From Lingula anatina (Eukaryota > Animalia > Brachiopoda): a DNA stretch of 64,000 nt. Shown one piece after another: positions 10,929 through 55,943 of this stretch (its first letter is position 1; each line of letters begins with the position of its first letter). A program made the position numbers and the translations under genes. The notes beneath the pieces are model-generated. The model searched no databases and had not been told where the DNA came from. It saw only the letters and a list, made by a program, of their open reading frames with translations. The stretch is taken from positions 34,429,967 through 34,493,966 of the forward strand of contig CM120640.1 in NCBI GenBank assembly GCA_051362555.1, written 5' to 3'.

Positions 10929-10963
<35 letters not shown>

Positions 10964-28240: not shown

Positions 28241-29624
28241 TTGTCTTATGATTACCCCTTGCTGCCTTTTGCTAATTTATACTATAAAATGACGCAAAGC
28301 AACATGTGTTCTGGTTTTTCATTCGTAAAAATTTCACCATTTGTTGGCTTTCAAATCTGTTAAAGGAATGGACATGGTAACATCTTTAATGAAACTAAAG
28401 AATGTAACAATTTTTTAGTTATAGCAATCGTCACTGTAATATGATAATATAGGATATTGCTTCTTTTAAAGGAGATGGAACTGTTGAAAACACAGAGGAT
28501 CCCTTTGTGGGTGTGTGACTATGGTGCTGGAGATGGAGGAACATCTATGAAACTGATGGCAGAGATTAAGTAACTCTTCGAAATTAATTTTTAGGAAAAT
28601 ATTACAAACTACAGATGAAATTAAGTTAAATTTCCTAATTTATTTACGGTTATCAAGTGGATAATGAACTCCATAATAAACATTCATTGAAAGCGTTCAA
28701 TACCCTTTCATATAAGATATAGCCTTAAAATAAAAATCGGGACTATCTAAGCTTAGAAAGGCGACCTTGCAAACTTGGATTAATACGACTGGATTTCAGG
28801 ATATTGATGTCACGGACAACGGTTTCTTTTTCAGAAGCTGTTCGCACAAAATACGGGAAAGAAAAACCTATTGTGATAGTGTACGAGGATCTACCCTGGA
28901 ACGATTTCAAGTCATTATTCTTTCTGACACACGGTACGAAATTTGACAGTCTGTCTTTTTAATTTAATTATTTATTTAGGTTATTGAAAATAATATTTAT
29001 ATTTATTGCTTTCGCGTCATCCTTCTGTTAATCAGTTATTCTTACTTATAGGTTTATTTGAAGATCAAAAGACCTTTCTTCCTGAAGATAAAAACGTGTT
29101 TCTCCTGGCCAGAGGTACTAATTTCTATGAACAATGTATGCCGTCGAACTATGTGGATCTGGCTGTGTCCTGCTATGCTATATGCATTGGTTGAGTAAAA
29201 GGTGGGTTAGCTCTCGTGGTCAAAGCTTAAGGAATGTAATGAATGGAGAGTAATATAAAGGAACAGCACATAAAATATAAAACACTTATGATAAATATCA
29301 AAACCATTATTATGCTATGCTAACTTGAAATTAAATTACACTGTTTGTATTCTGTTATTTGTATGATCACGCAGGCCTTGCAATCTTCCATGGGATATTA
29401 CATGCCAGGGGGATAAAGTCAGTCAAGAAGAGCTTGATGCATATAAAAGGCAGGCCGCTGAGGACTGGGAAACAATTCTCATACACCGGGCAACAGAATT
29501 AAAACCAGGTACTTTAGAATAAGTTAAAGAATCATGAATTAATTATATATATATATATATATATGTTTTTAACCTCATATCCAGGCGAGATTCCTACTTT
29601 TTTTCCATTCACTTCTTTTGATAT

Positions 29625-29661
<37 letters not shown>

Positions 29662-31258
29662 AATATATATATATAAATATATCATAAACAATTAAATAGT
29701 CAAGATTACATTTGTCACCTAAACAAAGCCTGAATAATTAGTTCATTATTCTTTAACTTATTCTTATGTTGTCTTTAAGGTGCCCACATCATAATAGTGG
29801 CCATGAGTACAAAAGATGGCATGTATCCTGGTAGTACAGTGCATTACAAAGTTAAAGTTATCCCGTACCTACGGGACTTATGGTTTTCCTTTGTGACAGA
29901 GGGGCGAATAACCAAGGTAGGATATTTTTCCAACTAAAATTTCTACCTTTTTTCTGAACGGGATCAGGCATTTAGTTTTGTTAGTGTTGAGACTAGCCAC
30001 CACCTACATAAAAGTACACTCTGCACCTACCGGTAGTCTCCTACCAATGTATAATAATTTTTCTACGATATATAATCTAGTTGTTACATTTCAGGAAGAA
30101 TTTGCAAAAACAAACATAGCATTTTGCCATCGTTCAGAAGACGAATTCACGGCACCATTTTTGCATGAAGACTCCAAGGTTTTGAAGGCGGGGTTAAAAC
30201 TTGTATCGATCGAGATAAAGGATGCCCACATTGACTACTCTTTGGAAACAGAAGTTGGCGAAACCTTAGGTTAGTAAGATTAAAGAAACAAATTATTTAA
30301 ATATAAAATGAAAAAAAATTTACTTGCTGGCAAAACGCTATGCATTGTTATATTTCAAAAACCAAAATGATGTCCGAAACTCTAACTTGGCACGTATGGT
30401 AAGTGATTTCGCATTGACTTGATTGAAATCAGTCGTTGTAACGATGTTAAAATGTTAATGTTGCAGACCAGATTGAAATCCATGCTGATGTAAAATCGAC
30501 CATAGTCAAATTTTATTTTTAGATTTTAATTTGGCCTATTCAGGATCAAAATTCCAAGTTGGCTAAGGAAGATTTAAAATCTAACCAGACCAAATTAAAT
30601 TTTCAATTCTGCTTAGACCAAATTGAAATCTGACTAGGATATGTTGAAATTTCAATATTACAGATTCACTTTTGTAGTTTAGCCTAGACAGAATTGTAAT
30701 TTTAATTAGGTCTTGGGCAATTCAAAAACTGCCTAGTTCATGTTCAATCCTTCAATTCTACCCCACAGATGGCGAACCACTAAGCGTGACTCACGAGGCA
30801 AGAAAGTACGTCAATGTGTTCCGAGCATGGGCCGAAGCCATCTTTACGTCTGCTTTAAATGAAAGTCGGTCAGAAGAGGAAAAAATGCCATTGCAGATGC
30901 TTTTTTTGGTCGGTTTGAGGAGGATGTTGCCAGCAATCCAAATGATTTTGGTTATGACATGATATTGGCATATATAAATATAATGAAAACCAAACCAATG
31001 GCTTGAAGTCGTAGCATGCGGGGTGCAGAGTTTTACCTATTTAAAATTGAGACATATTTGATTAAAATTTTTCTTTAATGTTTTTATAAGTAAGTTTAAT
31101 AACACGCATAATAAGCGTCTCACACTTTTATGATATTAAATAGTATGGAGCACATAGTAATATAGGATTTGCCGTGGATCCTTATTTCTTAATGTGCCTT
31201 TTTCTTCGTAGTTCATGAGAGACTGTGCTCCATTTGTTTTATTATACTGGTTGTCCAC

Positions 31259-34734: not shown

Positions 34735-37700
34735 CTACCTCGCGTATTGTGTCTTGATTTCTTCAAAGAGTTTAATGAGATTCTCTAAGCCCTTTAAATA
34801 ACCTTTATCTGGTCCCCTGTGGACTGTGTTATCCTCTGTAAATCCTTCATGCGTTGTATGTGCAAAGTCAATCATACGGACATCCACCTTTGGCGGCCTG
34901 GGATGTTTGCTCCGTGGTTCTACATTGCACTTGTTACTAATGTTCTCTTTACTCAGGCTCTTTGGCTTCTCTGCGTTGATTTTTGATAGTGTATGGTGTT
35001 CGGCGCTGCAAGAAGATGGCAAAAGCAGCAACTGATCTTCATTGCTATCGTCACTGCCACTCGACGATCCCGGGGTAATAAAACTGCTATCGTCCAATGA
35101 TCTGCTTCTCTTTGGAGCCATTTCCCTCACCGGTGTGTTCTTCTTCATATCCGACGTGTGCTCTTTCCCATCATACATCAGTAAAAGTGAACTGGAATAG
35201 AAACGGAATGTGTCTTGCTTGGACAACATTTCATGGAACTGCAGCAGTCTCTCTATCATAGGGTCAATAATGTCCACTCTAAGTTTGTGCCCGTTGTGCA
35301 GGAACTGATAAAGCGTCTCTTTGAATCCCTCCACTGTAAGTCCACGCCCGTAGTATTTGTTTCTGCACACAAAGCTGAGGGAGTTGACCTGGTAAACCTG
35401 AGGAAAGAAACAATGAAAAGCATTCAAATCACCATCTGAAAAACATTAAGAAAAAGTACACTTTGAAAATAAACAAATCCTCTTTGTGTACTTTTTAATT
35501 TTTTGTGTACTCTCTGTCAAAAAGTCAATCATTTTTATGGTTGAAACGGGTCACAAGGGGATGTCACAGTTGCCTTCACATCTATAATGATCTAACTGAC
35601 TGAGCCTACTTGAGATGTGTTGATATTCAATCAAGCATGAAATAAGAAGCAAGTTTTTTTTTGATTTCTTTTCATTTTTTTTAAAAATTCAGTGACCTCA
35701 AACATTACCTGCATTCCAGCCAGCCTTATGGCTAGGGATGCAGAAGTAGTGGCTGCACATTTGTCTATCTTCCGTTTCCTTTTTGTTTCGTTTTCCTCAT
35801 CTCCATACTGTCGTGTTCCCATCTTTAAGTCTAGTATACAGGGATATTTGAACTCTGAGGACACGTTCTCCAACAAAATAAATTCTGCACATGAGTTAAG
35901 GTATACAAAGTCCATTTTTATCCTTTTTCATTTAAAACAACTCAAAACATTTGCAGAAATTTATATTGGGAATGGCATTATCTGATAGCTGTAAAATGTA
36001 TGAAAAAGTATGAAAAAAAAAAAAAAAAAAACAGCTTTTCCTCTTCATTTCCATTCAAAATTGAATACATTTCCCCTTTACATTTTACACAAATCATCTG
36101 TTTGTCCTTAATGCCAAAAATAGTTACTCTTGTACAATATATGGAAGTATGTACCTCTTCTAGAGAAACAAATTCGTAAACATTCCCCTTAATAGATGCA
36201 CAGGCACATGTCCCTAAGGTGACCCAGCTCCTTTTATTCTCCTGTACTTAACCAAACAATGGCGAGACAGAATTTCAATCACCACTCACTGAAGGAATGA
36301 CAGTGCAGTCAAGCAGTCTATAAACACAACCCTAGCAATCATTGTTTGAGCCACAGAATCAACAAGGTGTCAAAACCTTGAGTTTAAAGTACGCCTAAAA
36401 ATAATGTGATGTGATGTGATGTGATGTGTTCTGGAGGGTGCCAAGTACAAGAGGGTAATAATGGGGTCATTGCTTTTTAGCTGTACTGTCTGGGTGATCT
36501 GGGTGACCCAATTCCATCTGTCTGCTCAGATCAGGAAGAAGGGACATGACAGCCTTCTGACACGTGATTATCACCGGGTTACAATTTCAACAAAAGACCC
36601 TTCTACCCTGATTCTTTATATCAGAGAGCAAGGATCTCACAGCTTTCTGACATGATTTCAAAAAATCATTCAATAAACAAAATAAATTTATTCACCTTAA
36701 AAAAAGAAGACCCTTTTAATCACCATAATACTTTGATTAGACTGGGAAAAAAACTTGAAATTGCATAAGGATACTGAATGTCCCAGATGGGCTGATGTTC
36801 TTCCACATCTTGGATAGTGTGCGCTTGTGACAGCGTAAACTCCATGGGTTGTGCCCTGCGTGTTCCACTAACTGGTCTGTGTTGTCCAATACTTCCACAT
36901 CGCCTTCAAAGTCGATGCTTCCAGTTCTCCTCATACGAACCCTGAATGAGAGAAAGGCAAGTCGCCAAAGTTAAAGTTGTGATATCCATGTTTAAAGTTT
37001 GTGGAGTCCTGACTTTCATTCATTGAACAATACCTCGTAACCAAACAATGACTGAATATGTCTGAATCCCCCCTCCTCAAAGATTTCATTTCTGGTGCAC
37101 TTCAGGTGAAAAGTTTACCTAAGAGTAAGGCAATTACTCACTACACGTGAACAAAAATGAATAAACTGCATTTTCTTAAACGTTGTTTTATAAATGATAC
37201 CTGAAAACTAACCTGATGTGTGCATTAACCTTAATGAATATGGTGCTTATTAATAAGTCCTTATACTTTCTCTAATTCTGAACCCAATTCAATAATCAGA
37301 ATCAAGTTTGCTTCTTCCTATTAATATATTCACCTTCAGATATTCTCTCTCTTGCAGTTTTTTAAGATCATTGAGCTTGCAATAAAAATAGCCTATTTTC
37401 TGAGCAAATTTCAACACAACCAAGACCAACAATATATAAGACTTAGTATGTCAAACTCCATGACACTACCAACCTTAATGCTTCTTTCCCATTCCCCTTA
37501 GACTGCTGCATGGGGAGTCTCCTCGTTTCAGAATCCTCTTCCTCCTCCTCCTCCTCATCTGATTGGTCCTCACCTTCCCCACACGAGCCTGAGGATTCTT
37601 GTGCTTCTCTCCATAAACGTACCTTGTCATGGCAACCTGGTGGGTAACCTATTAGTGTCAGGTAACCCTTGCTGTCTTCATGGAAGGCAACCTCGATTGC

Positions 37701-39507
37701 ACCTGTTATCATTGAAAAAATCTGTTAAGTTAAAAGTATACATCTTTTGCTTATAGTTTATATTTCATCTTTCTTACTAAAAAATGGTTTACCTTAAGGA
37801 ATAGGTTCTTTTATTCCTATGGCCTTATTAACTCGGGGGTCTCCTTTTGTAGAATAAACATCAATTGCAAAACTATTGAAAAATCTTGCATATTAATAAT
37901 CAGATATTGATAAGAAAGGGCTAAAATTACGATTCTTGGAACAAGTCATATCTGTTATACTAAAAATCTCTAGTAATCTCATTCACTGTATGTAATAATG
38001 TGCTATCGCCTCATGTTATCCTTTGGCTATGATTGCAACTCAACATATGTCAAATCAATAAATGAAGTACAGATTATCTGACAAGATAATCTGATAAGAT
38101 CAAGTTGATCCCATTGTCTTTGCAAAAATCCATCAGAATTGCAGATACATTCTCAGAAAATCCCAAAAAAGATTTTCAAGGAATCCCAACCACACAAAGA
38201 AATACTTTAGCAAAAGAGGTCTGAAAATATACAGCTTGGATAGTCATTACTACAATGAAGGTATGTGTTTGTTTGTTTAACCTGCTCTAGTGAAAGCAGG
38301 GTGACTCAAATACACCTGGTATGCCAGGGGAAAAGGGTTTTTCCAAAAAAACAACCACTCACTCATTCAAAGAAAGAAGCAATATTTTTTTTTATAATTT
38401 TCAGTACCCTTTTCAAAAAATCATGTTGACAACAAAGAACCAGAAAAGGTACATGACAGGTAGTCATTAAGACATTTTATACTTATATAATAACACAGTC
38501 TTAATCTGATTTATCTAAAAAACCAGTTCTACAATGCAAGATGTACATAGCTTAACACAAACATGAGCCTAGGTTTAAAAAAAAACTCTGAACATATATC
38601 ATGGGACCCAACACCTAACCTTGACGAATCTCAGGGATCAGAATTGAATTTAAAAAACGCGGAATTCCGACTCCACTTTTCCACGGAAAAAGCTCATGTC
38701 TGTTAACACGACTGGATATAACTGTAAATATTAACTGAAGTGCTGAGAAATCAGATAAAATGCCATGTAACTGGCAACTCTGAATATCATAAAAATTGAC
38801 ATAGGTCATTAACAGGGCTATAAAAAATACTTGTACCTGCATAGAAAACAGCTGCAGCTCATCAAATAACTCTAATACTATATTTACACACATACCATCT
38901 GTTTATGATGCACCCATATTTCCAGCAATTGAACAGTGACCATAACCTTGTAGGAGCAGTCCCCTGCCAACAGTCCTACTACTGAATCTGTCACAGGTTT
39001 TTCCACAAATAAATAAAGAAATTAGCCTAGGATGGATTGAGCCACACCACAACTCTTTTCACTAGTGTTACAGAAACTGACAAATTCATAAACCTCAGAA
39101 GCAAAGTATCAGTCTTGGGTTTAAATACCTTTCTGCATCTGTTCATAGCAGAATTAATTTTTTGTCAATTTCTGATTTTCTATTATCTTTTTCTTTCATT
39201 TTTCTTTCATTTTCATAGGCAAGGGTACAAGTTATAAATAAGAAATTGTGCTGCATTTGGTACCACTTTCAGTACCAAATTCAACAGTGACACAGACACT
39301 TCCAAACCCACCTCTGTACCCTGGTGTGAATTCCTTCATCGCACTCGGCATGGTCTTATAGAAATGATGTTCCCTGGCAATAAGTGGTTTACATAGAGTT
39401 GTATCGTCAAACTTCAGCACACTGCTGGTTCCGCCCACCTGGTGAACATAAGGTTCCAGTGGCACCGGCTCCCAAATCTCCTTTACATCCATGATTCCTT
39501 CAGGCAT
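34735..39507 (-). CDS. IP6K: Inositol hexakisphosphate kinase (about 476 aa, 5 coding exons)
   Basis: Exons 39507-39312, 37702-37474, 36941-36775, 35884-35709 and 35397-34735 splice into a 1431-nt open frame. Motifs [40 protein letters not shown] (PxxxDxKxG), [15 protein letters not shown] and [13 protein letters not shown]. Confidence 0.96.
35885..36774 (-). other. U12-type (minor spliceosome) GT-AG intron of IP6K
   Basis: Donor GTATCCTTAT. Branch sequence ACCTTAAC lies about 10 nt before the CAG acceptor, and there is no polypyrimidine tract. The phase-1 junction restores the frame (TF-K-FILLEN). Confidence 0.88.
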
Positions 39508-40142
39508 TGGGGCCCACTGTGAAATAAATAAATATAACAGAATAAATAATTATAATCAATTAATGAAATAAAATAAGAAAAATACTGTTAGTTAACTATG
39601 ACCATGACAACAACAATTTGCAAAGAACCTTAAATTGACAAACAAATTCACACACTATTAAGAATCCCCTTAATTTAGTCAGGTATGATACAATGCTATA
39701 CACGACATAACCCAACTACATGGACCTCACCAAACTAAGCTTCAATCACTTGACTACATACAAAGGGGTACACAAGAATAAGCGAGGGGGGACAAGACAT
39801 GACAATACAACACATGACAAATATATAAACAAAATTGTATGTTGACTGTGAAGTGTCAACAAAATTAAAACCAATTGTTTAGAAAATTTTGAGAACCCAA
39901 ACATAATATCTAGTGCTTCTGTTCACTTTCACTGTGAAACATCCAAGTGAAAATGTTGACCCGACTTCACTCAATTGATATCAACTTGTGGAACCAGTCT
40001 TCCAAAAAATGTATTTCTGGCTATCACTTAACCCACTTTTGTAGCCATTAACCGAACTTTCCTACTATGAATTGTACTTGTTGAACTCTCAGTGGCAATG
40101 GTTTCAACATGCCACAAAAGTAATGAGTGCTTTCTAAGATTG

Positions 40143-40341
40143 TATTCCCACAGATTTTTAGATTGATCAATCGGGGAGTCTCACTAGATTGCTATCACCT
40201 TAGCCGGCTTAAATGTCTGTCCTGCCTACTAAAAGCTGTAAGGCGGTAATTAACTTTCGTGTGCGCTCGACTGACAGCAATTTAGCGTGAACCCCCAGGG
40301 AGTTAGGTCGATCCAGATGGATCGATCTAAATCTGTGGGAA
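40143..40341. mobile_element. About 200-bp MITE (TIR TTCCC..CAGATTTTAGAT) upstream of the first IP6K coding exon
   Basis: ttccccacagatttttagattgat ... atcgatctaaatctgtgggaa. Closely similar to 54632-54848. Confidence 0.75.
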
Positions 40342-41277
40342 CCCAGTCTAAGATACTTTTTCTCCATCATCTCATCTAGGCAAATAAACAGGTCCTCCAC
40401 TATAGTAAGATTTAAAATGGTGATATTAACTGGTGGGAATACAAATCTAGTGAGTACTTCTTTGAGTTTCCTAGCACATAAATCTTAGGAACATAATAAC
40501 ATTAAAGGTTACTACTTAAGACATATATGCCATCTTACTGACAATCAATGCATTATCTCTATAAGGGGTGTTTCACTACTGTTCTATGACATTTGCAAAG
40601 AAAAAAATAAAGGGAACAGATGAGTCATATGCGTAAATTGTGCTTCTTAAGCCAGATCCTATCCCTGGCATACCAAACTTGTCTCTGCCCCCACTGCCCC
40701 AACCCCTCAAGGTGTTCTATTAATACGAAAACCATGTTACCAGGTGGGAAATACCTGTCAGAAACTACTGGAAGCTGTTTCATTCATTCCACAAACATCC
40801 AGAGTAAGCTACGTACACGTAGGTATTTGAACTAAAAGACGCAATCAAGGATTGCTCATCTCATGCTTGAATATTTTATGTTACAAATATAACAGAGTGA
40901 AGGTTTACCCATTCAATCCCAGTGAATATATTGTTCAGTTGTTCAATTTCTTTTTTATTTTAAAGCCTGAGGAAAATGAATGGCTTATGGACATGTATGT
41001 TACCATTGCTGACAAAAACCATGGTGAATTCTGCTATACTCTTGGCTCATGTAAAAATCTACTACTACTTTGTCTCCCAATAACATTGTTCTGAAACTGT
41101 TCACATCTTTTATTTGCACTCAAACTGAAGTCTGTGTATATTACTGGTAATTGCTTCGCAACTAGCAACAGAGTATTTATTTCCCCCAAGTAGAATCTTA
41201 ATAAGAAAAATACATAATATACTCCAATTACGACTTTATAACAAAGAGGGCATTCAGAAAAAGTACAGTAGTTCCAT

Positions 41278-41499
41278 GAACTAACACATCCATGGATCAA
41301 ATATGGCCCACCCACTTAAAAGCAATCCCAACTTATGCCCTGATGGTCTTCCCGCCTCCACACGCACCGTCCTAGTAATTAAACCTTGGAGCCCATATTT
41401 AATCCGTTTATTGGCACCTATGGAGGCGAGGGGTTCAAAGGATTAGGTGGCTTGCTTTTAAGTGGGTTTGGCCACATTTAGTCCATAGATCAGTTAGTC
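41278..41499. repeat. Degenerate foldback element
   Basis: The arms ccatggatcaaatatggcccacccacttaaaagcaa and ttgcttttaagtgggtttggccacatttagtccatagat are imperfect reverse complements. Confidence 0.6.
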
Positions 41500-42380
41500 A
41501 AGAGATCATCTGTTCTGAATGCAAACATATGCATCCATACAGACCCTACCTCATCATTGCTTCCTTTGAAATAGACCTAAAACATACCGAGTTAAAAATG
41601 TTCCCACATAGTTGTAAACAAAACTTGTTTATAGCTCATGCTTTAAAAATAATGGCCCTTGGGTTATCACTCCTGGCTTATCAAGCTTAAAATACTCTAT
41701 CTGACCTTCATGTCAAAGGGACCTTAGGCATAAACAAATATGACCTATTTCAAGTTTATGAGACTGAAACACAGATATGATACTGGCTTCCTAGAATACC
41801 ACATGCCTTTCAAAAGGGCAACAAGCAATCCTTAGCTATCTGTGTGTGCTACTCCTGAGCTTCAGCCAGAATTTCACATTTTACCAAAAGATGAGCATCA
41901 TAAGGTCTTCTTTTTAAACGAACAGAAAGAAAACATCTTATCACTATTTTGAAAAAAAAAAGAAGTTTTCTGGCAAGGCAAAATAATTCAAGCTTGCTTA
42001 ACCAAAGCAATACAACTGTGTCTCAATTCATCAGCCATGTTCAGCCTGCAAGTATTGATCGTTTGACAGCATTTCAACCAGCTTCAGCTGTTGCATCACT
42101 TTACAAAGGAGAACTGCAGATCAATATACTGTTCATCCATAGGCAAATATTTATATATATGTGCACCAAGTAATGATTTTTAACAGCAGGTGTAGGTGGA
42201 TTATAACCCTAGCATTATAGGTCATTTTTCTCTTAGATTTCTCCATACTTGGATGCATTATGTGTACAGCACTTTCGTAAAATTTGGAAAATGGCATCAT
42301 CTGTTGTTCAAGTACCAACAAACCATCAATATGGCCATCAATGAACAACATGAAATCCAGATGATTATGTGAACCTAGAA

Positions 42381-42540
42381 TGGGGTAGTGCTAGCAATTT
42401 TTTTCGCTTAGCCAAATTTGTCAATTTGTTATCCATATGGTTTAAATTTGACTAAAATTAGTCAAATCAAGTCCTTTTTATTTAGCCAATTTAAGTCAGT
42501 TTTAGCATTTGGCTAAATTGGCTTGTGTTAGTGCTACCCA
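42381..42540. mobile_element. Short TIR element
   Basis: gggtagtgctagc...ttagccaaat at the left and atttggctaa...gttagtgctaccc at the right. Confidence 0.5.
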
Positions 42541-43892
42541 AGATAGACCATCTGAACATGAATAAAGAATTTAGAAAGGTGTCATTGGAATTGCTCTAAT
42601 AATGAAAAGACATTTAATCATAACTTTTCCACAGCCAAATTGTGATAGCCCTACTTGGAATCCTAAATATATCATGTGATTGAACATTTTCTCATTTCAA
42701 AGATAGCTAGAGGGTACAAGTACCTTGTATTGTTGATACTTTTCAACAGCTGACATAATGAAATTATTCAGCAGGGTTTACTCTGTCATAAGACCTTGAG
42801 AAAGTCAGATGACAGATAGTGACACAGGGCAGTCATGATATACCTATGACTGAAAATAATACAGTGCATGTAGATTTAGCTATCAAATGTGCAGTCACAA
42901 GACAAAATATAAACATGTTATCAATCAGACATCTTTCTTGGGTGTCATATTCCACAAGCTATGGCTGACAAAACTGACAACTGTTGTGCCTCAAAACATC
43001 CATGCCACTGATGCCTTCACTGAATATTTCAGTAAGTTCACTGAACTGCAGTTTGAAACTCAAATAGTATGACTCCAACTTCTTCCGTGAAAACCCTTTC
43101 ACCTAAAAACCTGGAACCCCAACCAATATACAGTATAACTGCACATATTACAATTTGATTTTTCCACAAATATCCTAGCAATTGTGGTGTGGATTTTTTT
43201 AAAATCTTCTTTTCATTTAAAGTGTCTCATGAAATGACGATGGAAAAGCAAATGAGACATGCGTTATAAATTTCTGATCCTATCATTTGACAAACAGTGA
43301 CACTGCGCTCTCAGTTCTATCAGATGACTATCATCTGTGCCAGCCGAAATTTGCTTCACTGTGCCAGCGACTGTTATTTCATTTCGGAAACGAAGGGCTA
43401 CTGATCTAATCCTCAATTTCTATCACTTATGAAAAGGCTGAAATGTTAAAATACTTATTTACAGTATTAAACTGTATATTCCTCAATACCTAATAGAGTG
43501 ATAATATGATATCTTTTTCTTTTCCTCAGAAAACAACTAAATGCTGTCATAGTATAAGTAACCGTAAACTGCTGTCAGTGTAATAATCAATAAACGTATA
43601 CCGAAAGAACAACAAATAATTTCTAGAAGCTTACTGAAGACACTTACTAACCTCATTCGTCGTACTACATGAAATCCCGAGATTATCTCTATCTTACAGT
43701 ACAAGATTAGATTGAGACGCAAGGACGGTAGTAAAGACTAAACATGTACGTATCGGAACCTCTTTCAGAGGGATAAATATTTTTTTCAACAGGCGTTAAT
43801 GAACTCGAAGTGATTATATTTTTGTGTGGATGACAACTGTATGACAAAGAAAACACAAGTTCCATACTGTCACGTACCTTAATTCGTCTTAC

Positions 43893-43960
43893 CTGATGAT
43901 TAACTCATTAAACGTGTACTTTCTCAGTGGAAAAATACATGGCAGCAGATCACTGCCATC
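43893..43960 (-). other. Putative non-coding first exon of IP6K
   Basis: Strong donor CAG|GTAAGA at 43893/43892. The first coding exon has an acceptor (ttatttcacag at 39517) 9 nt before the ATG, which implies an upstream exon. CCAAT and an E-box lie immediately upstream. The transcription start is not determined. Confidence 0.45.
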
Positions 43961-45889
43961 AATAGATTAATATAGCCAATCATCTCTAAGAACAGAAGGC
44001 ACGTGACATGGCTATGCTGCGTTTCAAAGATAGATGGCAATACCGTCGAGGAACTCAAGATAAACTAGTCGATCAAAGCTTTAAAAGATATTTTTTAAAA
44101 TATATTTACTTTAATTTTCAAAATAGTTTCAGCTCCATCTCAAATAAATTAGTTTATCATTAATTAGTCCATTAATCGATTGTTTAATCAGCCAGTCAGT
44201 TACTCAATGGATGAATGCAGGAGCGGATTTAGTTGGGGAAGGTGGGGGGGTCAGGGGCGTCGCCATTGAGAGGGGGGGGGGGGTCGGCTTCGCATCTGAG
44301 CCCCCCCCCCCCCCCCCCCTTCAAATAATCCTGGATCCTCCCCAGGAATGAGCGGACTCATTTGAATTTTAAAATCAGGGCCAGGAGTGCCAGAAAATAA
44401 CAACAAAACGACGACAACAACAACAATAATTATAATAATAATAAAAGAAAAGAAAACAACAAAAATGTAAAACCAAATGATGGCACATACTTGCACTACA
44501 CACTCTAAACTTAGCCATGCCAATGTTTTGTTTAGCTACGGAGTTAAGTCGGAAACCGATCATTATCTCATACTAATTTGTGCAGTAGCTAAATTGACGC
44601 CGATGAATGATTGGCCATCCTATGTGCAGAAGTGTACGTGTGGGTGATAAGTAAAAACAAAAACTGGAAAAAAGTTTTCACCCTAAAATTGTACGCTTAT
44701 TTTTAATTGCATAAATAATATTAATTAAGATACATGTAAGCAATTTATATTAAAGGAAGAGAAATAGTTATTTTGCCAAATGTGGGCATATAGGCCTATA
44801 ATATATCCAACTACTTAAGCATGATTATAAAATGAATTCACTGTACAATATAGGCTACAATACAATATGTAGCTGGCATGTTAACTGTACCTGTATGAAG
44901 TAAGCAGGGCACGTGTCCTGTCAAAATGTACCCTATGAACCCTATGTCAATGGGGGCGGGGGTCCGCTTTAAATCCGCGGCCTGTCATTCCTAAAAACCG
45001 GACCCCCGTTCAAATAATCCTGGATCCACCCCTGATAGCTGTTACTCAGATGAGTGATCCACCGATAATTGTCAAATGAAAAAAAGTTTCGTTCAAATTA
45101 TTCTCAGAAACTCGAATGTTTACCGGAAAATACAATCAAAACACAAAAAATATAATCAAAACAAAAAATTAAAAATTATACCTTAAATCAAATTACCTCA
45201 ATTATTTTGAAATATTACAAATGGATTTTAAAATTTTATTCTGTGTAGAAATTGAAGCTGTTTTCTACCTTTCAGTATTCAGCGATGTTTCTGTCGATTG
45301 CGCTGATGTGTCAAGATTTTTAACTTTACCATGATAATGCAATATAGTAAGGAGAGGCCAGACCAAATTGATAAGCTGGTTAACGAGCAGTGAATCTCTA
45401 TATACAGGGGCCTTATATTTGTTATTTATTGATTTTTGATAAATAATATAGATAAGCTTTTGGATAGACTGGATTTTTCTTTACTTTCTTTCCCTTTTTT
45501 TATTTAAGTTGGAAGGATATAGGCCTATGTCAAATTCACATTATGAGCATAAAATAACAAGTGTTATTTTTCCTGGGGTCAGTTATAAAATTTCCCACTT
45601 ACCAAACAAATGCATTTAACATGTAAAAAAAAAGACATTTGTAAAACCAAAGATCGGTCGTAATGTTTTACCAACTTTAATGTAGATTTTTTAACTGAAC
45701 TAAACTGCTCAGTGCGGTTGTGATGTCCTTGGTGCAGGTATCGTTTCGCAACTACTGCATTTACTGGAGATAGTTTGCGCACAACGAAGTGATTTGTATT
45801 TCACGATTTATACTTCCCCTATCAAGAAAAAATGAGGCATCATTCATTGATTTATGTGTATATTATATTTTTTGTTATTTCGCTTACAG
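43960..45889. promoter_or_regulatory. Divergent promoter interval between IP6K and DIPP
   Basis: Lies between the oppositely oriented 5' ends. Contains CCAAT at 43976, CACGTG at 44000 and 44910, ATTGG at 44610, and no coding sequence. Confidence 0.5.
44218..44345. mobile_element. MITE of the CAGGRGCGGAT family with 5-bp target duplication
   Basis: gaatg|caggagcggattt ... ggatcctccccag|gaatg, with internal G and C runs. Confidence 0.7.
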
Positions 45890-46073
45890 ATCTGACACGA
45901 TCTACCACATTTAGAAGAATTTCGCCAGTTATGGATGTTCGTCTTTCATAGGAAGTTTACGCGCGCGTTAGTAACGAAACAACAATCGACATGGTGATGA
46001 TGGCTGAGACAAGTATGTGAAAAAACTCCTTGCATCTCTTTGTGGTTCATCACTGACACATCACATAATCTGC

Positions 46074-46449
46074 ATGTCCAACGCAGCGATGGTCAAGGAG
46101 AAACCTAATTCCATAAGAACATATGATGAAGATGGTTTTAGACGACGCGGCGCCTGTGTTTGCTTTAAGGACGAAAGCGAGGAAGAGGTGAGAAAATAAG
46201 TTGAGAAAATCAGCCAAGCTTAGGTCAGCTTATTTTATTCTTTAATTTTGATAACATTAATGGTTTGTGAGTTTGTTAAACGACTGGAATGTCTAGCTCT
46301 TTAATGGATGACCAAACTGATTTACACGCTGTTCTTTATATGTGGTATTGAATTCATGATCGTAATTTGTATCGTCTCTCACTAACTTTAAATCTGAAGT
46401 GCTATCATGTAAGATCATGATGTTTTACATAATCGCTTTCCCTCTCTCA

Positions 46450-46481
<32 letters not shown>

Positions 46482-49400
46482 TGCGCACACACGCACACAC
46501 GCACACACACTTAAGTGTTGGTTACATAACAACATTTATCTTTCAATGACAAAATGCTTGTCATATTATATGGGTACTCTAAACCCCCTTTACACTGGAT
46601 GGTGTCATTTCTGCATCCTTTGTGCATCCATGAAACTGGCATCGCTGTGGTCGTAGAAAGGAGGCAAAAGCATTGCTTTTGTTGCAGAATGAATGCTCAT
46701 TGATTGACAAGTTGTTTGCTTGTAAAATATTTTTTTACTCTCAAATGCGGCCATACTACGGGATGCAGAAAGGATGCTGTCCATTGTAAGGGGGGCTATA
46801 CTGAAATAAGGAATATCTGTTTTATATTGATTAGATATACCCCCTAAATTTAAATGGAAGTAGATAATACACATTCCTTACCCTCTACCAGGCCCACAGA
46901 TTGATTTTTCACTAGATATTAACAGATATGTCTCTGGTTAAATTCATGACTAAGATAAACACATTTGGCACGATCAGATTTCATTTATATTTATAAAGTT
47001 CTTTAGAATTATTGCAGTGAATTACATCATTATATTGTCATGAAGGATAGTGCCGTCTGTATATAAATGTATATTGTTTTTTTGGCTTGAACACACTTAA
47101 TTTAATTTCCAACTGACGCTGATTTGTGAAGATATTCTGATATCAGTGATATGAAAAATTTATTGTCATTTACTCAGTAAGTGCTTTCACCCATCACAAT
47201 CTTAATCCTGAATAGTTAAAGGTATCCAAAAGTTGTTTTAGATGTATCATATTTTTTCTCAAACAAAAACCAATTCAAGTATATAAATTTTATTTTATTT
47301 TTAATTAAAAGATTTTAGGGAAATGCCAACATGCGAGTATGTAAGAAGGCACATGCAGGTACACATACACACACATGCATATGCACACACACACACACAT
47401 ACACACACCCTGGTGTTGGTATTATGATAGGTTGCCTATTTATGTGGAGGTGTAGCAGAGGTTGACAAACTCTTATGAGTATGATGGCATTATCTTGCTT
47501 TGTTGAGGCCCAAAGAATTTTATGCAGACTTCACAAAAAGTTGTATTAGAGTCAATGCTTATACTAGGTTTATATTTTCTATAACTAGTAATTGAATATT
47601 TTGCCAACTACAGTGTGATCTGCAGCTTTGTAGGCTATTTATGTGGTTACAAACATACAGATGATACTGGATGGATCGACACTTAAAGTTATAGATCTAC
47701 TTTGTAGATTTCTTTTCTCTTAGTCACTAGATAAATTTAAGTATGTTAAACATTCCAAAAAGTGCTTAATTTGCATCCTTGGAAGTTGGTGTAGTACTTT
47801 ACCAAAAATGCCTCCTGCCTCAATGGTGCCAAGGATTTTTGAAAGATACTAGCTTGCCTGGTTGGTGTTCTACCTGGCTACAGTGCTATTTAAAAGGGGT
47901 TTCCACATACAGGGATGAAAAATGTTTTAGCTCCAAAGGGATAAACTGGTGAGAATACATACCCATAAAATTGAATCCAGAACTCCAATATATGTTAAAG
48001 TGCATGGAATATCTAGATTTACAGTGACAGAAGTTGAAAAATCACTGAATTTTGAATAAAATATTCAGTCTGAATGCCATTAACAGCCAGTATAGTTTAT
48101 CTTTAGTGCAATTTCATTTTCATTAACAAAACATGAATGTTTCTGAGTTGGATCATATTTTGGAAGCCATCTACACCACCTGGCCTATATCCCTGGAGTG
48201 GCTATTGATTAAAAATTAAATTTGTTAATATCTAGGAGACAGAAATTATTGAAAATTCGAAATGCATCTCATGTGATTAAAATGATAGGATGTCAAGGAT
48301 AAAAGGTTGCTGTAACACACAAAAATGCTGACTGGTCATAATTTTGAATTCAAAAGAAAAGAGAGAGAGTTGGAAAGAAGCCAGGCAGAGAGAAAAATCT
48401 TGAAACGATGAAGAATAGAAACAAAATAATCACAAAATTTGATCAGGTCATGGATTTGCAAGCCTTCATTAGAAAACTCCACGCAGTCTGATTTACCAAT
48501 ACTTTGGTCTAGATATAACCAGTAATTAAGCAATTTTAGAAAGTATTACATGGTGGTATTCGGTGCAATATTAATATTCAATGTGATTATACAATTCTGT
48601 TGTGAACAACAGTTATAATGAAACTATTAAAGTACTCAAGACTAGCAGCACAGGTAGTCTGACAGGTGTGTGATATTGTTTAGCAGGGGAAAACAATTCT
48701 GTATGTATATATATATATGCCTTGAGCATCAATCTTTGACAGGCATATGAAGACATTATTATAGAGCTGTGCAGGTTGTTGTAAATCAACCATATCCCAG
48801 GTTATTTAGTGTCTAATATATAACATCATACAGCCCTTCATATATATTTGCTGCTGAAGTGATATGCCAAAGGGCATCTATATGTTTGTCAATGTTCTAA
48901 ACAAAGCAAAATGAGCCCTTGGGTCTGTAATGTAGTGTATTGTAATGCACTGTTATGTAATGCAATGAAAGACATGTCAGTTCTACTTTTAAAAATTGAC
49001 ATAATTTTTAACACTGGCAGTTTGATTTTTTTTCATTTCAAAAATTTATGTGGTGCAGGTATTTTGTTAGACATTTAACCTTCCTTAAGGGAGGCACACC
49101 TGTGTTCCAGATTTATTTGGCAACTTTCAGCATGTTTAAATGCCACTGACCGCTTATAAGTAAAGTTGTACCGAATGATTACATAGTAAATTTTTATCAG
49201 ACCCGAGATAAAAGATTTGGCTAATGTCAGACTTAAAAGTTTACGTATCACTGGGAGAAGTTCCAATTGAACAGAAAGTCCCTGGTTCTCTTCACCAATC
49301 TGGATTTTGCAGTATTGTTTCCACTGATTCATGATTTATGCAATGCCTTATGGGAAAATCCTTTTAATTGTACATGTATGAAGGAGTCTATGGGCGTATT

Positions 49401-52400
49401 GACGTTAAGATGAGACATATTCAAGTTCATTTCCGACAAAGTCAAAATGTGGTGTGATGCCTGAATTATCAAATTGATTTTTATGTTTTTGTAACAACAT
49501 GTATATGTGTTACAGTCAACTTTTGTCTGATAGGTTATTATTATAGACCAAACATAAAGTTACATAATCAGCATGCCAGTGTGTTACACACATCTTATAT
49601 ATGCTTTCTGAAATTATTTAATTTGACTGGAAAATGGACTAATTTATGCCTGATTGACTTCGAACACCATGTTAAGCAATCTGGTCATCTGATGATGTCG
49701 ATTAAACTATTTCAGTTTAGGTTGGTACACCTTTAAACACTTCTAGACCATCTTTCTACCCATATTAATAAAATGGCAGATGAAGGTCTTTCTATTGTGT
49801 GCCCATGCTATAGTAATCTGTTTATAAACATAAATGAAGCCACTGGTATAGAGGCACAATTTTTACTAGACTGCAACTGGCTAAAGCCAGTGGCGGAGGA
49901 TTCCCCTGCAAAATAGGCGTGGAAATGCTCTTACAAGGTCATGTGAAGGTCACGGGTTAAATTTGATCCCATATTCTGAAAGAGCATGTGCGAATTGGGG
50001 GGGGGGGGGGGGGGGGGTCAACAAAACATCACTTTTAGCCCACGTCAATAATTCTCCATGAAATAGCCAAATGACCTTGAAAATGAGGGTCAAGGTCAAA
50101 TTTGACATTTGATTTGGGGGTTTTGGTATATATGTTTGGGGTAGTTTACTATAGCATGCTATGATGACCAAAAACCAGTGTTTCATGGAGAAATTGCCAA
50201 ACTCAAGATTTCTGCAATGTCATAAATATTTAAAAATCTATATTAAAAAAAGTAATTAAGCAGTCGCTACCAAAGTACGGCTATCCTTAGATATATATAT
50301 AGGGCATCATTTGCCACTATGATTGGGGCTCTGGGCCTTCCGGTTCTTGAGATCTCGGAAACAAACCTTTTTTGAGCCCGTTTGCCCATTAGCGACCTAG
50401 ACCTTGACCTACTTGCATAAAAGTAGGTCATTATCTGTGGATTTACCTCAGTATCACTGGCCGTAAGGCTCTTAGCCATATGGCTTATACTTTAGGCCTA
50501 ATGGCAATTTCAAATTTTACAATTTTTGCCTTTAAAAGCCCCTGTGACCTTGAAAAGTAGGTCAAGGTCACTGAAACTGGTTCTGTGGCATATTCTGACC
50601 ATAGGCTACCTATGATAATTATTTCAGATTTTTTGCGAAAAAAAACGCGCGGAAAGAATAATAATAATACAACCAAAAACAATAGTATTCCCCTATGGGG
50701 AATCCTAATTATAGTTGCTCGCATGTAGAAATGGAGAAATTAACATCCACTGTACCTGTCTTTTGTAATTGAGTTCTGGCAGGTTAATTCTTACTTAGGT
50801 CAAGAGAAAGCAACAAGCTGTACGTGGTACGTAAGCATGAAGAAAATAAAACCAATAAAAGAGATTATAATACAATAATTAAAGAAATCAACCACATTTC
50901 CTAAGTAGTTTTCTATGAAACATGAAACTAAACCAGCCCACAACTGTGATGGCATACTTTTACAAGACAAAACTGTGCAGTTTATAATGGACTTAGTAAA
51001 CTGTCTGGTGAGCATGCTCGTGGAGTATTTATTCAGCAAAGTGCATACTTTGAAGGAGAAGCATTTAGGCAAGCAAGTATGTAGACAGACTCTTTCACTG
51101 TAATCAAATTGTAATGTTTGGGGTTTTTTTTCTTGAGAAAGACATTAAGATGTGTAAAATTAAATAAGAAGGAAGATTAAAAGTTATAAAACCATCAGAG
51201 CTTTGTTGTGAGTCAGTGGACCTCGAAGTTTACACTGAATATACAATAGAAAACTTATTGAGTATACTCTGTTTATTTGAATGAACTCTACACAGGTTAT
51301 TGGCAAATTAAACTTCGTGGTGTTCCACCGTTTCTGAAGTTTATTAAGAGTATTGTTATGTATTTTATTTTCTTGTACACCAAAGAGGGTGTTTACATGC
51401 GTTAGTATTCAGCCCATTCAGACAGCCCCAGAACAGCCGAACGTGGAAGGTTGGAACTGTTCAAAGAGCTCTCTTGTTTAAAACATGATGGATTAGTCGC
51501 TCAAAGGATAAGGCCCATTTATGACGATTTTTATTGAAATTCTGTAGAGGCAGAGTTCCAAAGGCCGCTTTGCTCTAAGATGAAAGTAATTCAAGGTTAC
51601 ATTGTTTTTGCACCAGATTAATTTTGATTTGAAATATGAAGCTACTAACTTTTGAAAATTTTACTGTTCAAGTCAATTTGCTGATGTACAGTCGAGTCTT
51701 ATGTGCATGGTCTTTATTATTCCTACATAAAGACCTTTTTTTCCTAATTGACAGATGTTTATAACCATCACAGTAAGATATAAAAAAATAGAAAATTGAT
51801 CTGTCTTTGGGTGTTTTGTAAATCTGTTTAAATCATCATAGACCGTAACATGTAATCTCACTGTTTGATTTTCTTTTCAGGGATAAAATGCACACATACT
51901 CTTTTCATGTTTTACCACACTCTGAACTGGTATGGCTTCTTGAGGTTACAAAAAAAGCCTGCATGATTTTCACGTAGGTTGCATTGAGAATGGCTTGTTA
52001 TAGTATTAATGCGGTGTAATGCAATAGTACAGTTCAACAGGGAGTGCTGGCCATCTGTCAAAAGGCACAGGGAATTGTGAGAGAACTGTGTGAGGACATG
52101 CAGTGAAAGAAAATGGCATACTAAGTCAAGACAGCACTGAGTTAATGAGATTTCTAGTCACAGCCTCCCCCCCCCTCTTCCCCTTATTCCCCTTCTTGAT
52201 TAACCCATGCCATAAGCTGTAGGTATGCACACAACTTGTTGATGAGTGGAGATGATTCTAAGCTCTGTAGCATCCTTAGCTCACAGGGCTGCATTCCAGT
52301 GAAATCTAGTGAAATCAATAAAGTTCTTATTAGGTCCAATTCAGAATCAGTCTATTTATCTCCTCCAAGTGTTGTTCCAGGTAAATTTTCTTCGCGAGAC

Positions 52401-55400
52401 CCACCTCATCGAAACCAAAATAAAAGCCCCAATCTATATCTGCTAGCTCTTGGCCGTAGTCCAATATATTTGTAATGTGCAGAGCTGAACTAAGCCAGTA
52501 CCTATGATTTATCAATAATTAAATGTGTGGTGTCTGTATAAAAAGACCGTTGTGTAGGTTTATTATTCATCAGTGAAAATCAAAGCAAATGTGCATACTG
52601 CTGATAATTCTGAGAAGTATTTGCACTTTTAACTTTGGAAATCTTCTTTTATGGAGAACATTTAAACCAGTTTCTGAAGAAAATGACATTGAAATTAGTC
52701 ATGAATGCTAAATATAATGCAGATCTCGGTAATGACAGAAAGTGCAGGGACGAGTATTCTGCATTTTCTTTTTCAAATCTGAATCAAAGATAGTTGGTGA
52801 AAAGAATGACTGACCTTTGAGCCACTGGCACATGTAACTGCAGGTGTAAAATGAAAGAAAATGTCAACAGTCTGTCTGGAGAAAACTGAACTAACTATTC
52901 GCAAAATGTTAAACTTTCAGCAAGTAAGACTGTCATATTTGAGTAATATTTAATCCAGATTTGAGGAAAGAGGGAATTTAATATCGTCTTGTTTTGGGTT
53001 CGGGATAGGAAACTGAAATCTCATTCTCCCCAGAACAAGGTGCAGAACGAACGATCTCGCAGGATGTAAGAGGTCATAATAGCGTAATAAAAATATTCAG
53101 TTCTCATGAACACCTTTCAGCACTTTTCATTGACATTTCCTTTCAAATGCCAGCTGGTATATAAGTAGAGGTAGAGGATTCATCTTGTTGTCTGGCCCAC
53201 CCAGATATATCTTGTCAGGCCACCATGACATCATCGACATATTTGGACACTATGCAGATTTTGATAACCCTTTTTTACAGCAAGATACACTCAATGTGCA
53301 TACTTTTTATTTGAGTCAGAAGTTTAAATAAGACTTGTCAGTAATGTAAACCTAGTTCAAATAAGTAAGAGTAATTAAAAATTATGCCAGATGTAGCTAC
53401 TTGGTATATTTTCACAAGACATAATGTACATGGTATCCGTGCATGATGACATCATCTGACATAATGTAAATTGTGGTAACCCTTAGGTACAAGTCATTTC
53501 CGTTGCACGTTTTTTGTCCAATAAGCAAACAAACAAACAAACATAGATAAATAAATTGTGAAATTAATTAATTGATTTAGTTAATTAATTTTTTTAAATA
53601 CTACTTACCTGTAACAAGATATGTCAGAAAATTCAACCAAGTTTTAGAAAAAAATTCAAAAATTCAATGAAATATTTTCATTCACTTAATTTGATGTATG
53701 TAAATTTTAGTTATGAACTGTATATATATATTATTTTACTTGCATAAACCCAGGGTACCTGCAAGGCCATAACAATCTGAAAGCTTAGGCATCCTAGCTA
53801 CTAATGGAGAAATACAACATTGATTAATTGGACCATAAACCATACTATTCCATTTGTTTTGTATTGGCTTTTTTTTTTTAGTAGTTGTTGTTGCCTGCCC
53901 TAAATTGATAATGGTAGTGATTTAGCTTTACTTATTATGCTGTGGGAATTTTTTCTTATTCAGGAAGAGACGGTAGAATATCCCCTATAGCATGAAGTCA
54001 TTTTTTTTTTTGTTAACTGTAAAATCCTCATTCTCATTCTAATCTGTAGATATAGTAGTATAGCAGTCAGTTTTTTCCCCACCTAATTAAGAACTTTTCC
54101 TCTGACACTCGCATTCTAATCTGTAACATGCATGGTAACTGGATTTTTCCACCTTTCACGAAAGTTGTACAGGATTGACATCATGAAACCTTTTTATGTC
54201 AAATGGAAATAAATGGATGCAGCAAAACTAACAGATACTGTTGAAACAGTCAGATGTATTTGGCCAAATCATCAATATTTGTCTACAGCAGTGTGGAAAG
54301 TTTTCAGGATTATTAACATGCTGAAAGCAAAGCAGGCTTATTATTGAACAGCTAAAATTTTGTCCATGCAGATTAGATTTGCTCTGATTTATATGTGGAG
54401 TATTCACTGGTTTAATATTTTTCTTACATTTATTATATGGAATAGCTATGATGATGCTGAAATATATTGTATAACCTTGCTTTTGCCGTCTTCCTCTTGC
54501 TCTACCATATTTTAAGAATTTGTTCCCTAAAATGAAAACATCCCACCATGTATGAAATTTTAGACATGCATCAATGGCTTATGTAAATAGCCTCAAAGAA
54601 AAGGCCAAATGGAATCAATTCTGTGTCATTTAGGCTCTATTCCCATAGATTTTAGATCGATCTATCTCCGCGGGGAGTCTCACTAGATTACTTTCAGATA
54701 ATCCGACTTAAATGTCCGTCCCGCCTACTACAAGCTGTAAGAGGGTAATTAACTTTCGTGTCCGCCCGGCTGACAGCTATTTAGCGTGAACCCCCAGGGA
54801 GTTAGGTCGATCTAAAGTAGGTCGATCTAATCTATGGAAATGGGGTGTAACATATAGAATATATATCTAGATTTCACTGGCAATACTTAAGAGTTAAATT
54901 TTAGAAATGCACCAACATGTGGTTAAGTATTCTGTGTTTGAAAAGAAAAATCGTACTTAACGATTGAAATACGACAAATGAAATCCAAAATGATAATGAC
55001 ATATGTAGTATATATGTCTCCTGTTTGTCATTCATTTGTTTTAAATTCAGGATCTATTGTTAGTCATAGAATTTATGTACTATGTCTTTCTTGTTTTCTA
55101 TCTAATAATTCCTTAATATGAAATCAAAGAGGTGTTGTGCTGCCACACCGCACATTAAGCTTTTCCATTCTTTTCTGTTTTGTGCCAAAGCCTGAGTTTG
55201 GGTGTGTCCATTCTAAGTCTTTAATGTCATTGTTCAATAGCTACATGTCACACCTTCAACTGTGCCTTGGAGCATTACATTCTGAAAACCGATCTTATCA
55301 TATGTCTGTACCATCAGAGCTTTCTTTACCTCTATGAGAAGGTTGTCACATTGTGAATCTTGATGGTTTTTATTATTGATTTGGTTGTAATAAACATCTA

Positions 55401-55943
55401 AAGTAAAAACACAAAGATGTATATCTACGCATTTATGAAATGCACCATTTGGACTAAAATGATTTCAGTAGCACTTTATATCAGTAGATAATGCAATAAA
55501 TATAAAAGAAAAGTATTTATAAATTTGTATTCCTCTCTCCCAACACACACACTCTCTCATACATGCACGCACACGCACGCATACACATTTTAAGATCACA
55601 TAACTTTCGGGTGATACACTTTTTCTAAAAAAGATTTTTCTCTAGTTCCCCCTAATAGTTATATAATTGGAAGCAACTCCCATTACCACCAGAAATCATA
55701 AAATTAATGCAATCATATAAGAGAGCAAAAATTCAATAAAAATCTTAACAATGTTATGAATAACAAGACCTACTTTTTTGTTCTCAGGTATTATTGGTAA
55801 CCAGTAAGAAGAGTCCAGACCTCTGGGTGGTCCCTGGGGGTGGCATAGAACCAACAGAAGACCCCAGGGTAGCGGCAGAGAGGGAGTGTTTTGAAGAAGC
55901 AGGAGTAAAGGGGGCTGTGAAGAGGAAACTAGGTGTTTTTGAG
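46074..55943 (+). CDS. NUDT3: Diphosphoinositol polyphosphate phosphohydrolase (DIPP, NUDT3/NUDT4-like Nudix hydrolase), 5' part; later exons not found in the window
   Basis: Exon 46074 (or 46089)-46187 encodes MVKEKPNSIRTYDEDGFRRRGACVCFKDESEEE|gtgag. Exon 55788-55943 encodes VLLVTSKKSPDLWVVPGGGIEPTEDPRVAAERECFEEAGVKGAVKRKLGVFE|gtacg, with a full Nudix box. Both junctions are phase 0 and match the DIPP N-terminus (RTYDxDGxxxRAACxCF). Confidence 0.93.
46582..46796. mobile_element. Degenerate MITE in DIPP intron
   Basis: cccctttacactggatggtgtcatttctgcatcc and ggatgcagaaaggatgctgtccattgtaagggg form inverted ends. Confidence 0.55.
49865..50709. mobile_element. Helentron-associated non-autonomous element in DIPP intron
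   Basis: Starts actaga after a T run. 5' ggattcccc matches the 3' hairpin attcccctatggggaatcc. Repeated tgaccttgaaaa..ggtcaaggtca palindromes and an (aat)n tract near the end. Confidence 0.65.
54632..54848. mobile_element. About 200-bp MITE, same family as 40143-40341
   Basis: attcccatagattttagatcgat ... gtcgatctaatctatggaaat, with a shared interior. Confidence 0.75.

What the first reader, a model, noticed from the sequence alone, without database searches (positions are those of the whole stretch)
34735..55943. Inositol-pyrophosphate maker and breaker paired head-to-head: IP6K and DIPP/NUDT3 share a divergent promoter interval
Seen: IP6K (minus) and a DIPP-type Nudix hydrolase (plus) are adjacent and divergent with no gene between them. 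Start codons are about 6.6 kb apart, and inferred 5' exons (43893 and 45890) are about 2 kb apart. Established: IP6K phosphorylates IP6 to 5-IP7 and DIPP removes the beta-phosphate, and the two folds are unrelated, so the pairing is not a tandem duplication. From memory, human IP6K3 and NUDT3 both map to 6p21.31 but are not adjacent. Inference: this may be an ancient, co-regulated (or reciprocally regulated) two-gene cassette setting inositol-pyrophosphate turnover, of which the vertebrate linkage is a relic. I know of no description of such a cassette.
Basis: partly seen in the sequence, partly recalled or inferred. Interest (0 to 1): 0.85.

Follow-up and report, generated by a model that had tools for sequence, protein, structure and literature searches.

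The report
Brachiopod IP6K-DIPP head-to-head gene pair
In the brachiopod Lingula, the gene for an enzyme predicted to make the signalling molecule 5-InsP7 and the gene for one predicted to break it down are neighbours read in opposite directions from starts about 2 kb apart; this is likely an old inherited gene order that several other animals have lost, and shared control of the two genes is untested.

Summary
The window is Lingula DNA (DIPP exon 2 is identical to L. anatina XP_013419477.1). An intact 476-aa IP6K (minus) and a DIPP/NUDT3-type Nudix gene (plus) diverge; ATGs are 6,567 bp apart. RNA-seq confirms the splicing, both strands, the IP6K leader exon and no gene between them. The 5' ends lie about 2.0 kb apart, beyond the usual 1 kb for a bidirectional promoter; the guessed DIPP acceptor at 45890 is not used. 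My comparisons give no support for a kept cassette: in 8 other invertebrates with both genes located, 0 have consecutive accessions; 4 carry them on one chromosome, 4 on different records. Pig keeps IP6K3 and NUDT3 within one 2.1-Mb interval with genes between. Two earlier unchecked AI notes report the same pair in arthropods; I could not test that. Best reading (0.55): an ancestral 5'-5' neighbour pair with two core promoters, retained in Lingula and dispensable elsewhere. Rivals: chance adjacency within an old linkage group (0.25), or a selected co-regulated cassette (0.17). Ten literature searches found no description of the pair.

The parts
34735..35397 (-). IP6K last coding exon (SSLL and IDFAH motifs, stop at 34737-34735); 3' UTR continues to at least 34000
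   Evidence: read depth
35709..35884 (-). IP6K coding exon 4 (PCILDLKMG inositol-phosphate-kinase motif)
   Evidence: joints
35885..36774 (-). 890-nt intron with U12-type (minor spliceosome) signals: GTATCCTT donor, CCTTAAC branch close to the AG
   Evidence: sequence; spliced in 3 of 3 raw runs; consensus recalled
36775..36941 (-). IP6K coding exon 3
37474..37702 (-). IP6K coding exon 2 (acidic stretch)
39312..39516 (-). IP6K coding exon 1, ATG at 39507
43878..43995 (-). IP6K non-coding leader exon; donors at 43893 (main) and 43878; 5' end about 43955-43995
   Evidence: joints and contig; depth and read ends
43996..45990 (.). About 2.0-kb interval between the two 5' ends; no gene; CpG observed/expected 0.85 against 0.27-0.36 in the gene bodies
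44268..44349 (.). Interspersed repeat copy 1 inside the interval
   Evidence: both-strand reads with loose ends
44959..45035 (.). Interspersed repeat copy 2 inside the interval
45992..46187 (+). DIPP/NUDT3-type gene exon 1; main 5' end about 45992-46002; ATG at 46074
55788..55943 (+). DIPP exon 2 with the Nudix box; exon 3 lies outside the window
   Evidence: loose read ends at 46189-46190 continue with exon-2 letters

Best explanation
Two spliced, expressed genes for a predicted IP6 kinase and a predicted DIPP pyrophosphatase stand head to head in Lingula with 5' ends about 2 kb apart, and this is likely a surviving ancestral 5'-5' neighbour pair with two separate core promoters rather than a dedicated control cassette. 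Shown: the layout, splicing, strands and the empty interval. From family knowledge: IP6K makes 5-InsP7 from InsP6 and DIPP removes the beta-phosphate, also acting on InsP8, polyphosphate and ApnA. Inferred: both starts lie in one CpG-retaining, probably unmethylated and open domain, which would give loose co-activity of two housekeeping genes. Inferred: breaks inside such a short interval are rare, so the pair persisted in slowly rearranging lineages, yet it was broken in bivalves and probably Owenia and loosened in mammals, so it is dispensable.
For: Layout and RNA. Both genes have reads in 7 of 7 raw runs. CpG peaks sit at each start with dips between (0.43 at 44600-44899, 0.15 at 45350-45649, noisy). 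Old linkage: same chromosome-scale record in Owenia, Liolophura, Pecten and Sinanodonta, 4 of 6 chromosome-scale invertebrate cases. Pig IP6K3 and NUDT3 lie in one 2.1-Mb interval, with LEMD2 and GRM4 listed between (PMC9714057, passages); being within 3-6 genes by chance is about 0.006-0.024 under my assumed 500-1,000 genes. [quoted passage not shown] Lead only, not tested: notes e1-7709127 and e1-7468965 report the pair in arthropods.
Against: I found the adjacency in no second species: 0 of 8 invertebrates have consecutive accessions or locus tags (gaps 766 Owenia, 1,897 Sinanodonta, 1,233 Pecten, 422 Liolophura; different records in Mizuhopecten, Ylistrum, Dreissena, Parasteatoda). That needs at least two losses in Spiralia. 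The one arthropod I could check (Parasteatoda) has them on different chromosomes, though spider duplicates (recalled) blur this. The pig list is a candidate-gene table, not a full gene order. No row for the pair appeared in the microsynteny supplements I could search.
Confidence: 0.55

Rival explanations
1. Chance neighbours. The two genes belong to one ancestral linkage group, and shuffling within the chromosome happened to place them head to head in the Lingula lineage only.
For: 0 of 8 other invertebrates show adjacency, while 4 of 6 chromosome-scale cases share a chromosome. A scan of many genomes is expected to turn up 0.3-9 such chance antagonist pairs under my assumptions. 5' ends are 2 kb apart with repeats between. 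Divergent neighbours are common: 25% in amphioxus (PMC6292497).
Against: Mammalian IP6K3 and NUDT3 lie close (NUDT3 at 6p21 in PMC13573052; both on human chromosome 6 in PMC4063336). Unchecked notes report the same pair in arthropods; independent origin twice would be improbable at about 2e-4 each.
Confidence: 0.25
2. Selected cassette. Shared cis-elements in the 2-kb interval tie synthesis to hydrolysis of 5-InsP7, together or reciprocally, and selection has kept the pair since early bilaterians.
For: Opposed reactions on one substrate (PMC13573052, passages). One continuous CpG-retaining domain, about 43100-46500, spans both starts. Ancient 5'-5' pairs are on average more co-expressed than control neighbours (PMC3514665). 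Divergent genes more than 1 kb apart can share a promoter (PMC2871058).
Against: Broken in at least 4 bivalves and probably Owenia. Gap is twice the usual 1-kb criterion. Non-genic DNA elsewhere in the window also keeps CpG (0.74 over 1-33000), so the domain is not specific. DIPP has several other substrates and prefers 1-InsP7. No expression test was possible.
Confidence: 0.17
3. Assembly artefact: two distant loci were joined inside the interval.
For: Two repeat copies lie in the interval; no DNA reads or second assembly were laid across it.
Against: No N in the window; the repeat matches are under 100 nt; CpG and GC-skew profiles run smoothly through the interval.
Confidence: 0.03

Closest known systems
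Conserved ancient microsyntenic pairs (CAMPs) in 5'-5' orientation, e.g. Hspe1-Hspd1, HADHA-HADHB (Irimia et al. 2012, PMC3514665; passages only)
   Same: Unrelated, divergently transcribed housekeeping genes of one pathway with a short interval.
   Different: Those examples are subunits or partners, here opposed enzymes. Hspe1-Hspd1 is kept in nearly all species with under 1 kb between; this pair is 2 kb apart and absent from the bivalves checked.
Ancestral chordate bidirectional promoters (Marletaz et al. 2018, PMC6292497; passages, 4 supplement files searched)
   Same: Housekeeping 5'-5' pairs that vertebrates mostly pulled apart; the mammalian IP6K3-NUDT3 proximity would fit such a fate.
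   Different: There 0-2 nucleosomes separate CAGE-defined starts; here about 2 kb does. IP6K and NUDT names gave no hit in the files searched.
Mammalian IP6K3 ... NUDT3 neighbourhood (pig SSC7 29.5-31.6 Mb, PMC9714057; human 6p21)
   Same: Same two gene families close on one chromosome.
   Different: LEMD2 and GRM4 are listed between them. As I recall, the human genes are about 0.5 Mb apart and on the same strand (no call).
PPIP5K/Vip1 bifunctional kinase-phosphatase (PMC13573052, passages)
   Same: Maker and breaker of an inositol pyrophosphate tied together.
   Different: There one polypeptide acts at the 1-position; here two genes of unrelated folds are linked only by position.

Membership tests
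IP6K (inositol phosphate kinase superfamily) | IPK domain with PxxxDxKxG, SSLL and IDF motifs (motif definitions recalled) | tested here: met
   Pfam PF03770 above cut-off; motifs at residues 212, 325, 432
IP6K (inositol phosphate kinase superfamily) | Closer to IP6Ks than to IPMK or IP3K | tested here: met
   Best 120 of 661 hits: named enzymes are IP6K, up to 170 bits, none IPMK or IP3K; 40-45% identity over about 470 aa to Owenia, Tubulanus, chiton and sheep IP6K; groups with spiralian IP6Ks in a tree without an IPMK outgroup. The best PDB hit is IPMK at 61 bits, where no animal IP6K was listed.
IP6K (inositol phosphate kinase superfamily) | Converts InsP6 to 5-InsP7 | not testable with these tools
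   Inferred from orthology
DIPP/NUDT3/Aps Nudix subfamily | Nudix box with catalytic glutamates | tested here: met
   Pattern match in exon 2; aligned with rabbit DIPP1 E66, E69, E70 (numbering counted by me)
DIPP/NUDT3/Aps Nudix subfamily | Basic and serine phosphate-contact residues (Arg10, Arg20 and others; PMC13573052 section 29) | tested here: met
   R10, R20, S39 in window exons; R89, H91, R115, K133 in the RefSeq protein beyond the window; S40 is Lys
DIPP/NUDT3/Aps Nudix subfamily | Hydrolyses the beta-phosphate of PP-InsPs | not testable with these tools
   Inferred from orthology
Bidirectional promoter | Divergent transcription, no gene between | tested here: met
   Stranded reads and empty interval
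Bidirectional promoter | Starts less than 1 kb apart (PMC2871058, PMC3514665) | tested here: not met
   About 2.0 kb by RNA-seq read ends; not CAGE, but coverage is absent from most of the interval
Bidirectional promoter | Shared cis-elements and correlated expression | not testable with these tools
   7 raw runs from 3 studies with differing divergence from the window cannot test this
Conserved ancient microsyntenic pair | Same adjacency in several distant phyla | tested here: inconclusive
   0 of 8 other invertebrates by accession proxy; near but not adjacent in pig; arthropod adjacency only in unchecked notes
Ancestral linkage group (macrosynteny) | Same chromosome in distant bilaterians | tested here: met
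   4 of 6 chromosome-scale invertebrate cases; human chromosome 6

The most novel reading that the evidence does not exclude
The kinase and the pyrophosphatase of 5-InsP7 were a head-to-head, jointly controlled pair in the ancestor of bilaterians, kept for over half a billion years in brachiopods and arthropods because shared cis-elements balance synthesis and hydrolysis of a phosphate and energy signal; mammalian IP6K3-NUDT3 is its remnant. It would be an operon-like maker-breaker unit for a second messenger in animals.
Probability: 0.17. Interest if true: 0.75.

Novelty: new member of a known kind. Interest (0 to 1): 0.45.

Why it matters
Inositol-pyrophosphate levels are thought to be set mainly at the enzyme level. 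A deeply kept head-to-head pair of the opposed enzymes would point to transcriptional balancing and give a 2-kb interval to dissect. Lingula adds a spiralian case; if the arthropod reports hold, it dates the pair to at least the protostome ancestor and explains the mammalian IP6K3-NUDT3 linkage. Lingula builds a calcium-phosphate shell (title of PMC4595640), so retention here invites a phosphate-handling test. If the survey fails, this is an ordinary chance neighbour pair.

Tried and rejected
No whole genome is held for this window. No RNA holder was listed by words; relatives' runs were laid instead. Metagenome scan with the DIPP protein returned 45 loci with partial matches of 28-63% identity, 0 of 45 with an IP6K match: uninformative. 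Vertebrate contig matches (1 of 7 same record, Narcine) concern IP6K1, not IP6K3, and were left out of the count. Tubulanus, Priapulus, Tegillarca, Uloborus, Lottia and Frankliniella gave only the IP6K record, and about 40 species only the DIPP record, so they could not be scored. 4 of 10 unnamed IP6K representatives looked up had no name. RefSeq XP numbers may run in interleaved series (recalled), so the Pecten and Liolophura gaps are weak negatives; Owenia is moderate; Sinanodonta, Dreissena and the two scaffold-level scallops are firmer. Read depth was not used for co-expression. Splice acceptor at 45890: rejected. Supplements: none readable for PMC3514665; the Robert et al. table is cut; whether the metazoan pair table of PMC2871058 and the orthologue-position tables of PMC13121700 were among the searched files is unknown. 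These unseen files may list the pair. Literature searches without a description of the pair: (40 of 49 listed), read as listings. The ESM Atlas did not answer. No fold or complex prediction was run: the families are clear by sequence and no binding is claimed.
Full report
Source. DIPP exon 2 is 100% identical to Lingula anatina XP_013419477.1 and exon 1 differs at one residue, so the window is Lingula (brachiopod) DNA. It has no N.

IP6K. Five minus-strand coding exons join into an open 476-aa frame with ATG at 39507 and stop at 34735. Two of three exons scanned hit Pfam IPK far above the cut-off. The PxxxDxKxG, SSLL and IDF motifs (definitions recalled) are present. Among the best 120 of 661 database hits, the rows named by enzyme say IP6K and none IPMK or IP3K; full-length identity to Owenia, nemertean, chiton and sheep IP6K is 40-45%. 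The best PDB hit is IPMK, at a much lower score.

DIPP. Exon 1 (ATG 46074) and exon 2 (55788-55943) match mammalian DIPP1-3 structures at about 62 bits against at most 31 for the other Nudix rows. The Nudix box is complete, and the phosphate-contact residues align with rabbit DIPP1 except Ser40, which is Lys. The last 64 residues have no match in the window, so the gene runs past 64000.

Transcripts. Eight runs from other individuals or relatives were laid. All four coding introns of IP6K are spliced as predicted in 3 of 3 raw runs. DIPP reads pile up from 45992-46002 in 4 of 7 raw runs, with thin unspliced coverage upstream in two runs and no joint at 45890. Loose ends at 46189-46190 continue with exon-2 letters. 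Stranded libraries put the two RNAs on opposite strands. Between the 5' ends, reads fall almost only on two repeat copies. The starts are therefore about 2.0 kb apart, by read ends rather than CAGE. The usual criterion for a bidirectional promoter is under 1 kb, with known exceptions (PMC2871058, passages; PMC3514665, passages).

The interval. CpG observed/expected is 0.85 between the starts and 0.27-0.36 in the gene bodies, with peaks at each start and dips between. I read this as methylated housekeeping gene bodies around an unmethylated promoter zone (inference). The left half of the window also has 0.74, so it does not prove a shared promoter.

Conservation, tested by record length and accession order. 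Both genes could be placed in 8 other invertebrates (tally). Same chromosome-scale record: Owenia (766 accessions apart), Sinanodonta (1,897 locus tags), Pecten (1,233), Liolophura (422). Different records: Mizuhopecten and Ylistrum (scaffolds), Dreissena and Parasteatoda (chromosomes). So 4 of 6 chromosome-scale cases share a chromosome and 0 of 8 look adjacent. The proxy is weak for the two RefSeq cases and paralogues may hide in the spider. In pig, a candidate-gene table lists ITPR3, IP6K3, LEMD2, GRM4, NUDT3 in one 2.1-Mb interval (PMC9714057, passages); both human genes are on chromosome 6 (PMC4063336, passages). Drosophila has them on different arms, as I recall (no call).

Chance. With 24,330 genes on 10 chromosomes (PMC13121700, passages) a given same-chromosome partner is the divergent neighbour with probability about 2e-4, but a scan of 100-300 genomes would show 0.3-9 such antagonist pairs under assumed pair counts. 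Lingula alone is thus not enough. The mammalian proximity (about 0.006-0.024 by chance, assumed gene numbers) favours ancestral closeness.

Earlier notes. Two AI reports from other genomes describe a head-to-head IP6K-DIPP pair in arthropods, one claiming recurrence from horseshoe crabs to insects and one in springtails. They moved my reading from chance towards ancestry. They are leads, and the 0.55 depends partly on them.

Mechanism. IP6K makes 5-InsP7; DIPP removes beta-phosphates from PP-InsPs, prefers 1-InsP7 and also cleaves polyphosphate and ApnA (PMC13573052, passages and section 29). Most likely the two genes are ancestral 5'-5' neighbours with their own core promoters in one open domain, loosely co-active and kept where no break fell between them. 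Loss in bivalves shows the link is dispensable. A dedicated rheostat is possible but has no direct evidence.

Known kinds and novelty. It works like the ancient 5'-5' pairs of Irimia et al. and the ancestral promoters of Marletaz et al. (PMC6292497, passages), but fails the 1-kb test, and cross-phylum adjacency is inconclusive here. Ten literature searches (listings) and supplement searches of six papers showed no description of the pair; PMC13508932 has no mention in its main text. Unseen supplements, above all those of PMC3514665, may list it. Verdict: real, apparently undescribed, a new member of a known kind; interest 0.45.

Noticed in passing
window 35885-36774 (-): IP6K intron with minor-spliceosome (U12-type) donor and branch signals, spliced in RNA-seq. 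I recall U12 introns in human IP6K genes; one search found no paper.
   Followed up: partly
window about 9400-15500 (-), 18960-25150 (-), 27140-31000 (+): Three paralogous multi-exon genes, 50-85% identical per exon; they resemble SABATH-type SAM methyltransferases (recalled; single exons had no convincing Pfam or PDB hit). The middle copy has an exon split over two frames near 21700.
   Followed up: partly
window 43878 and 43893 (-): Two alternative donors 15 nt apart on the IP6K leader exon; the leader holds up to four short upstream ORFs, and the DIPP leader three upstream ATGs out of frame.
   Followed up: partly
window 55788-55943 (+): Lingula DIPP has Lys where the other six aligned DIPPs have Ser40, a probable phosphate-contact position.
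   Followed up: no
window 40172-40313 and 54671-54812: 142-nt repeat, 89% identical, one copy in the first intron of each gene; heavy both-strand read pile-up marks it as an abundant dispersed element.
   Followed up: partly
P0015 and P0232: In the ray Narcine bancroftii IP6K1 and DIPP1 lie on the same 257.7-Mb record; distance unknown, perhaps a chromosome fusion.
   Followed up: no
window 27573-28088 (-) and 14608-14892 (+): ORFs that look like retrotransposon and transposase fragments (recalled resemblance; no significant Pfam hit).
   Followed up: no
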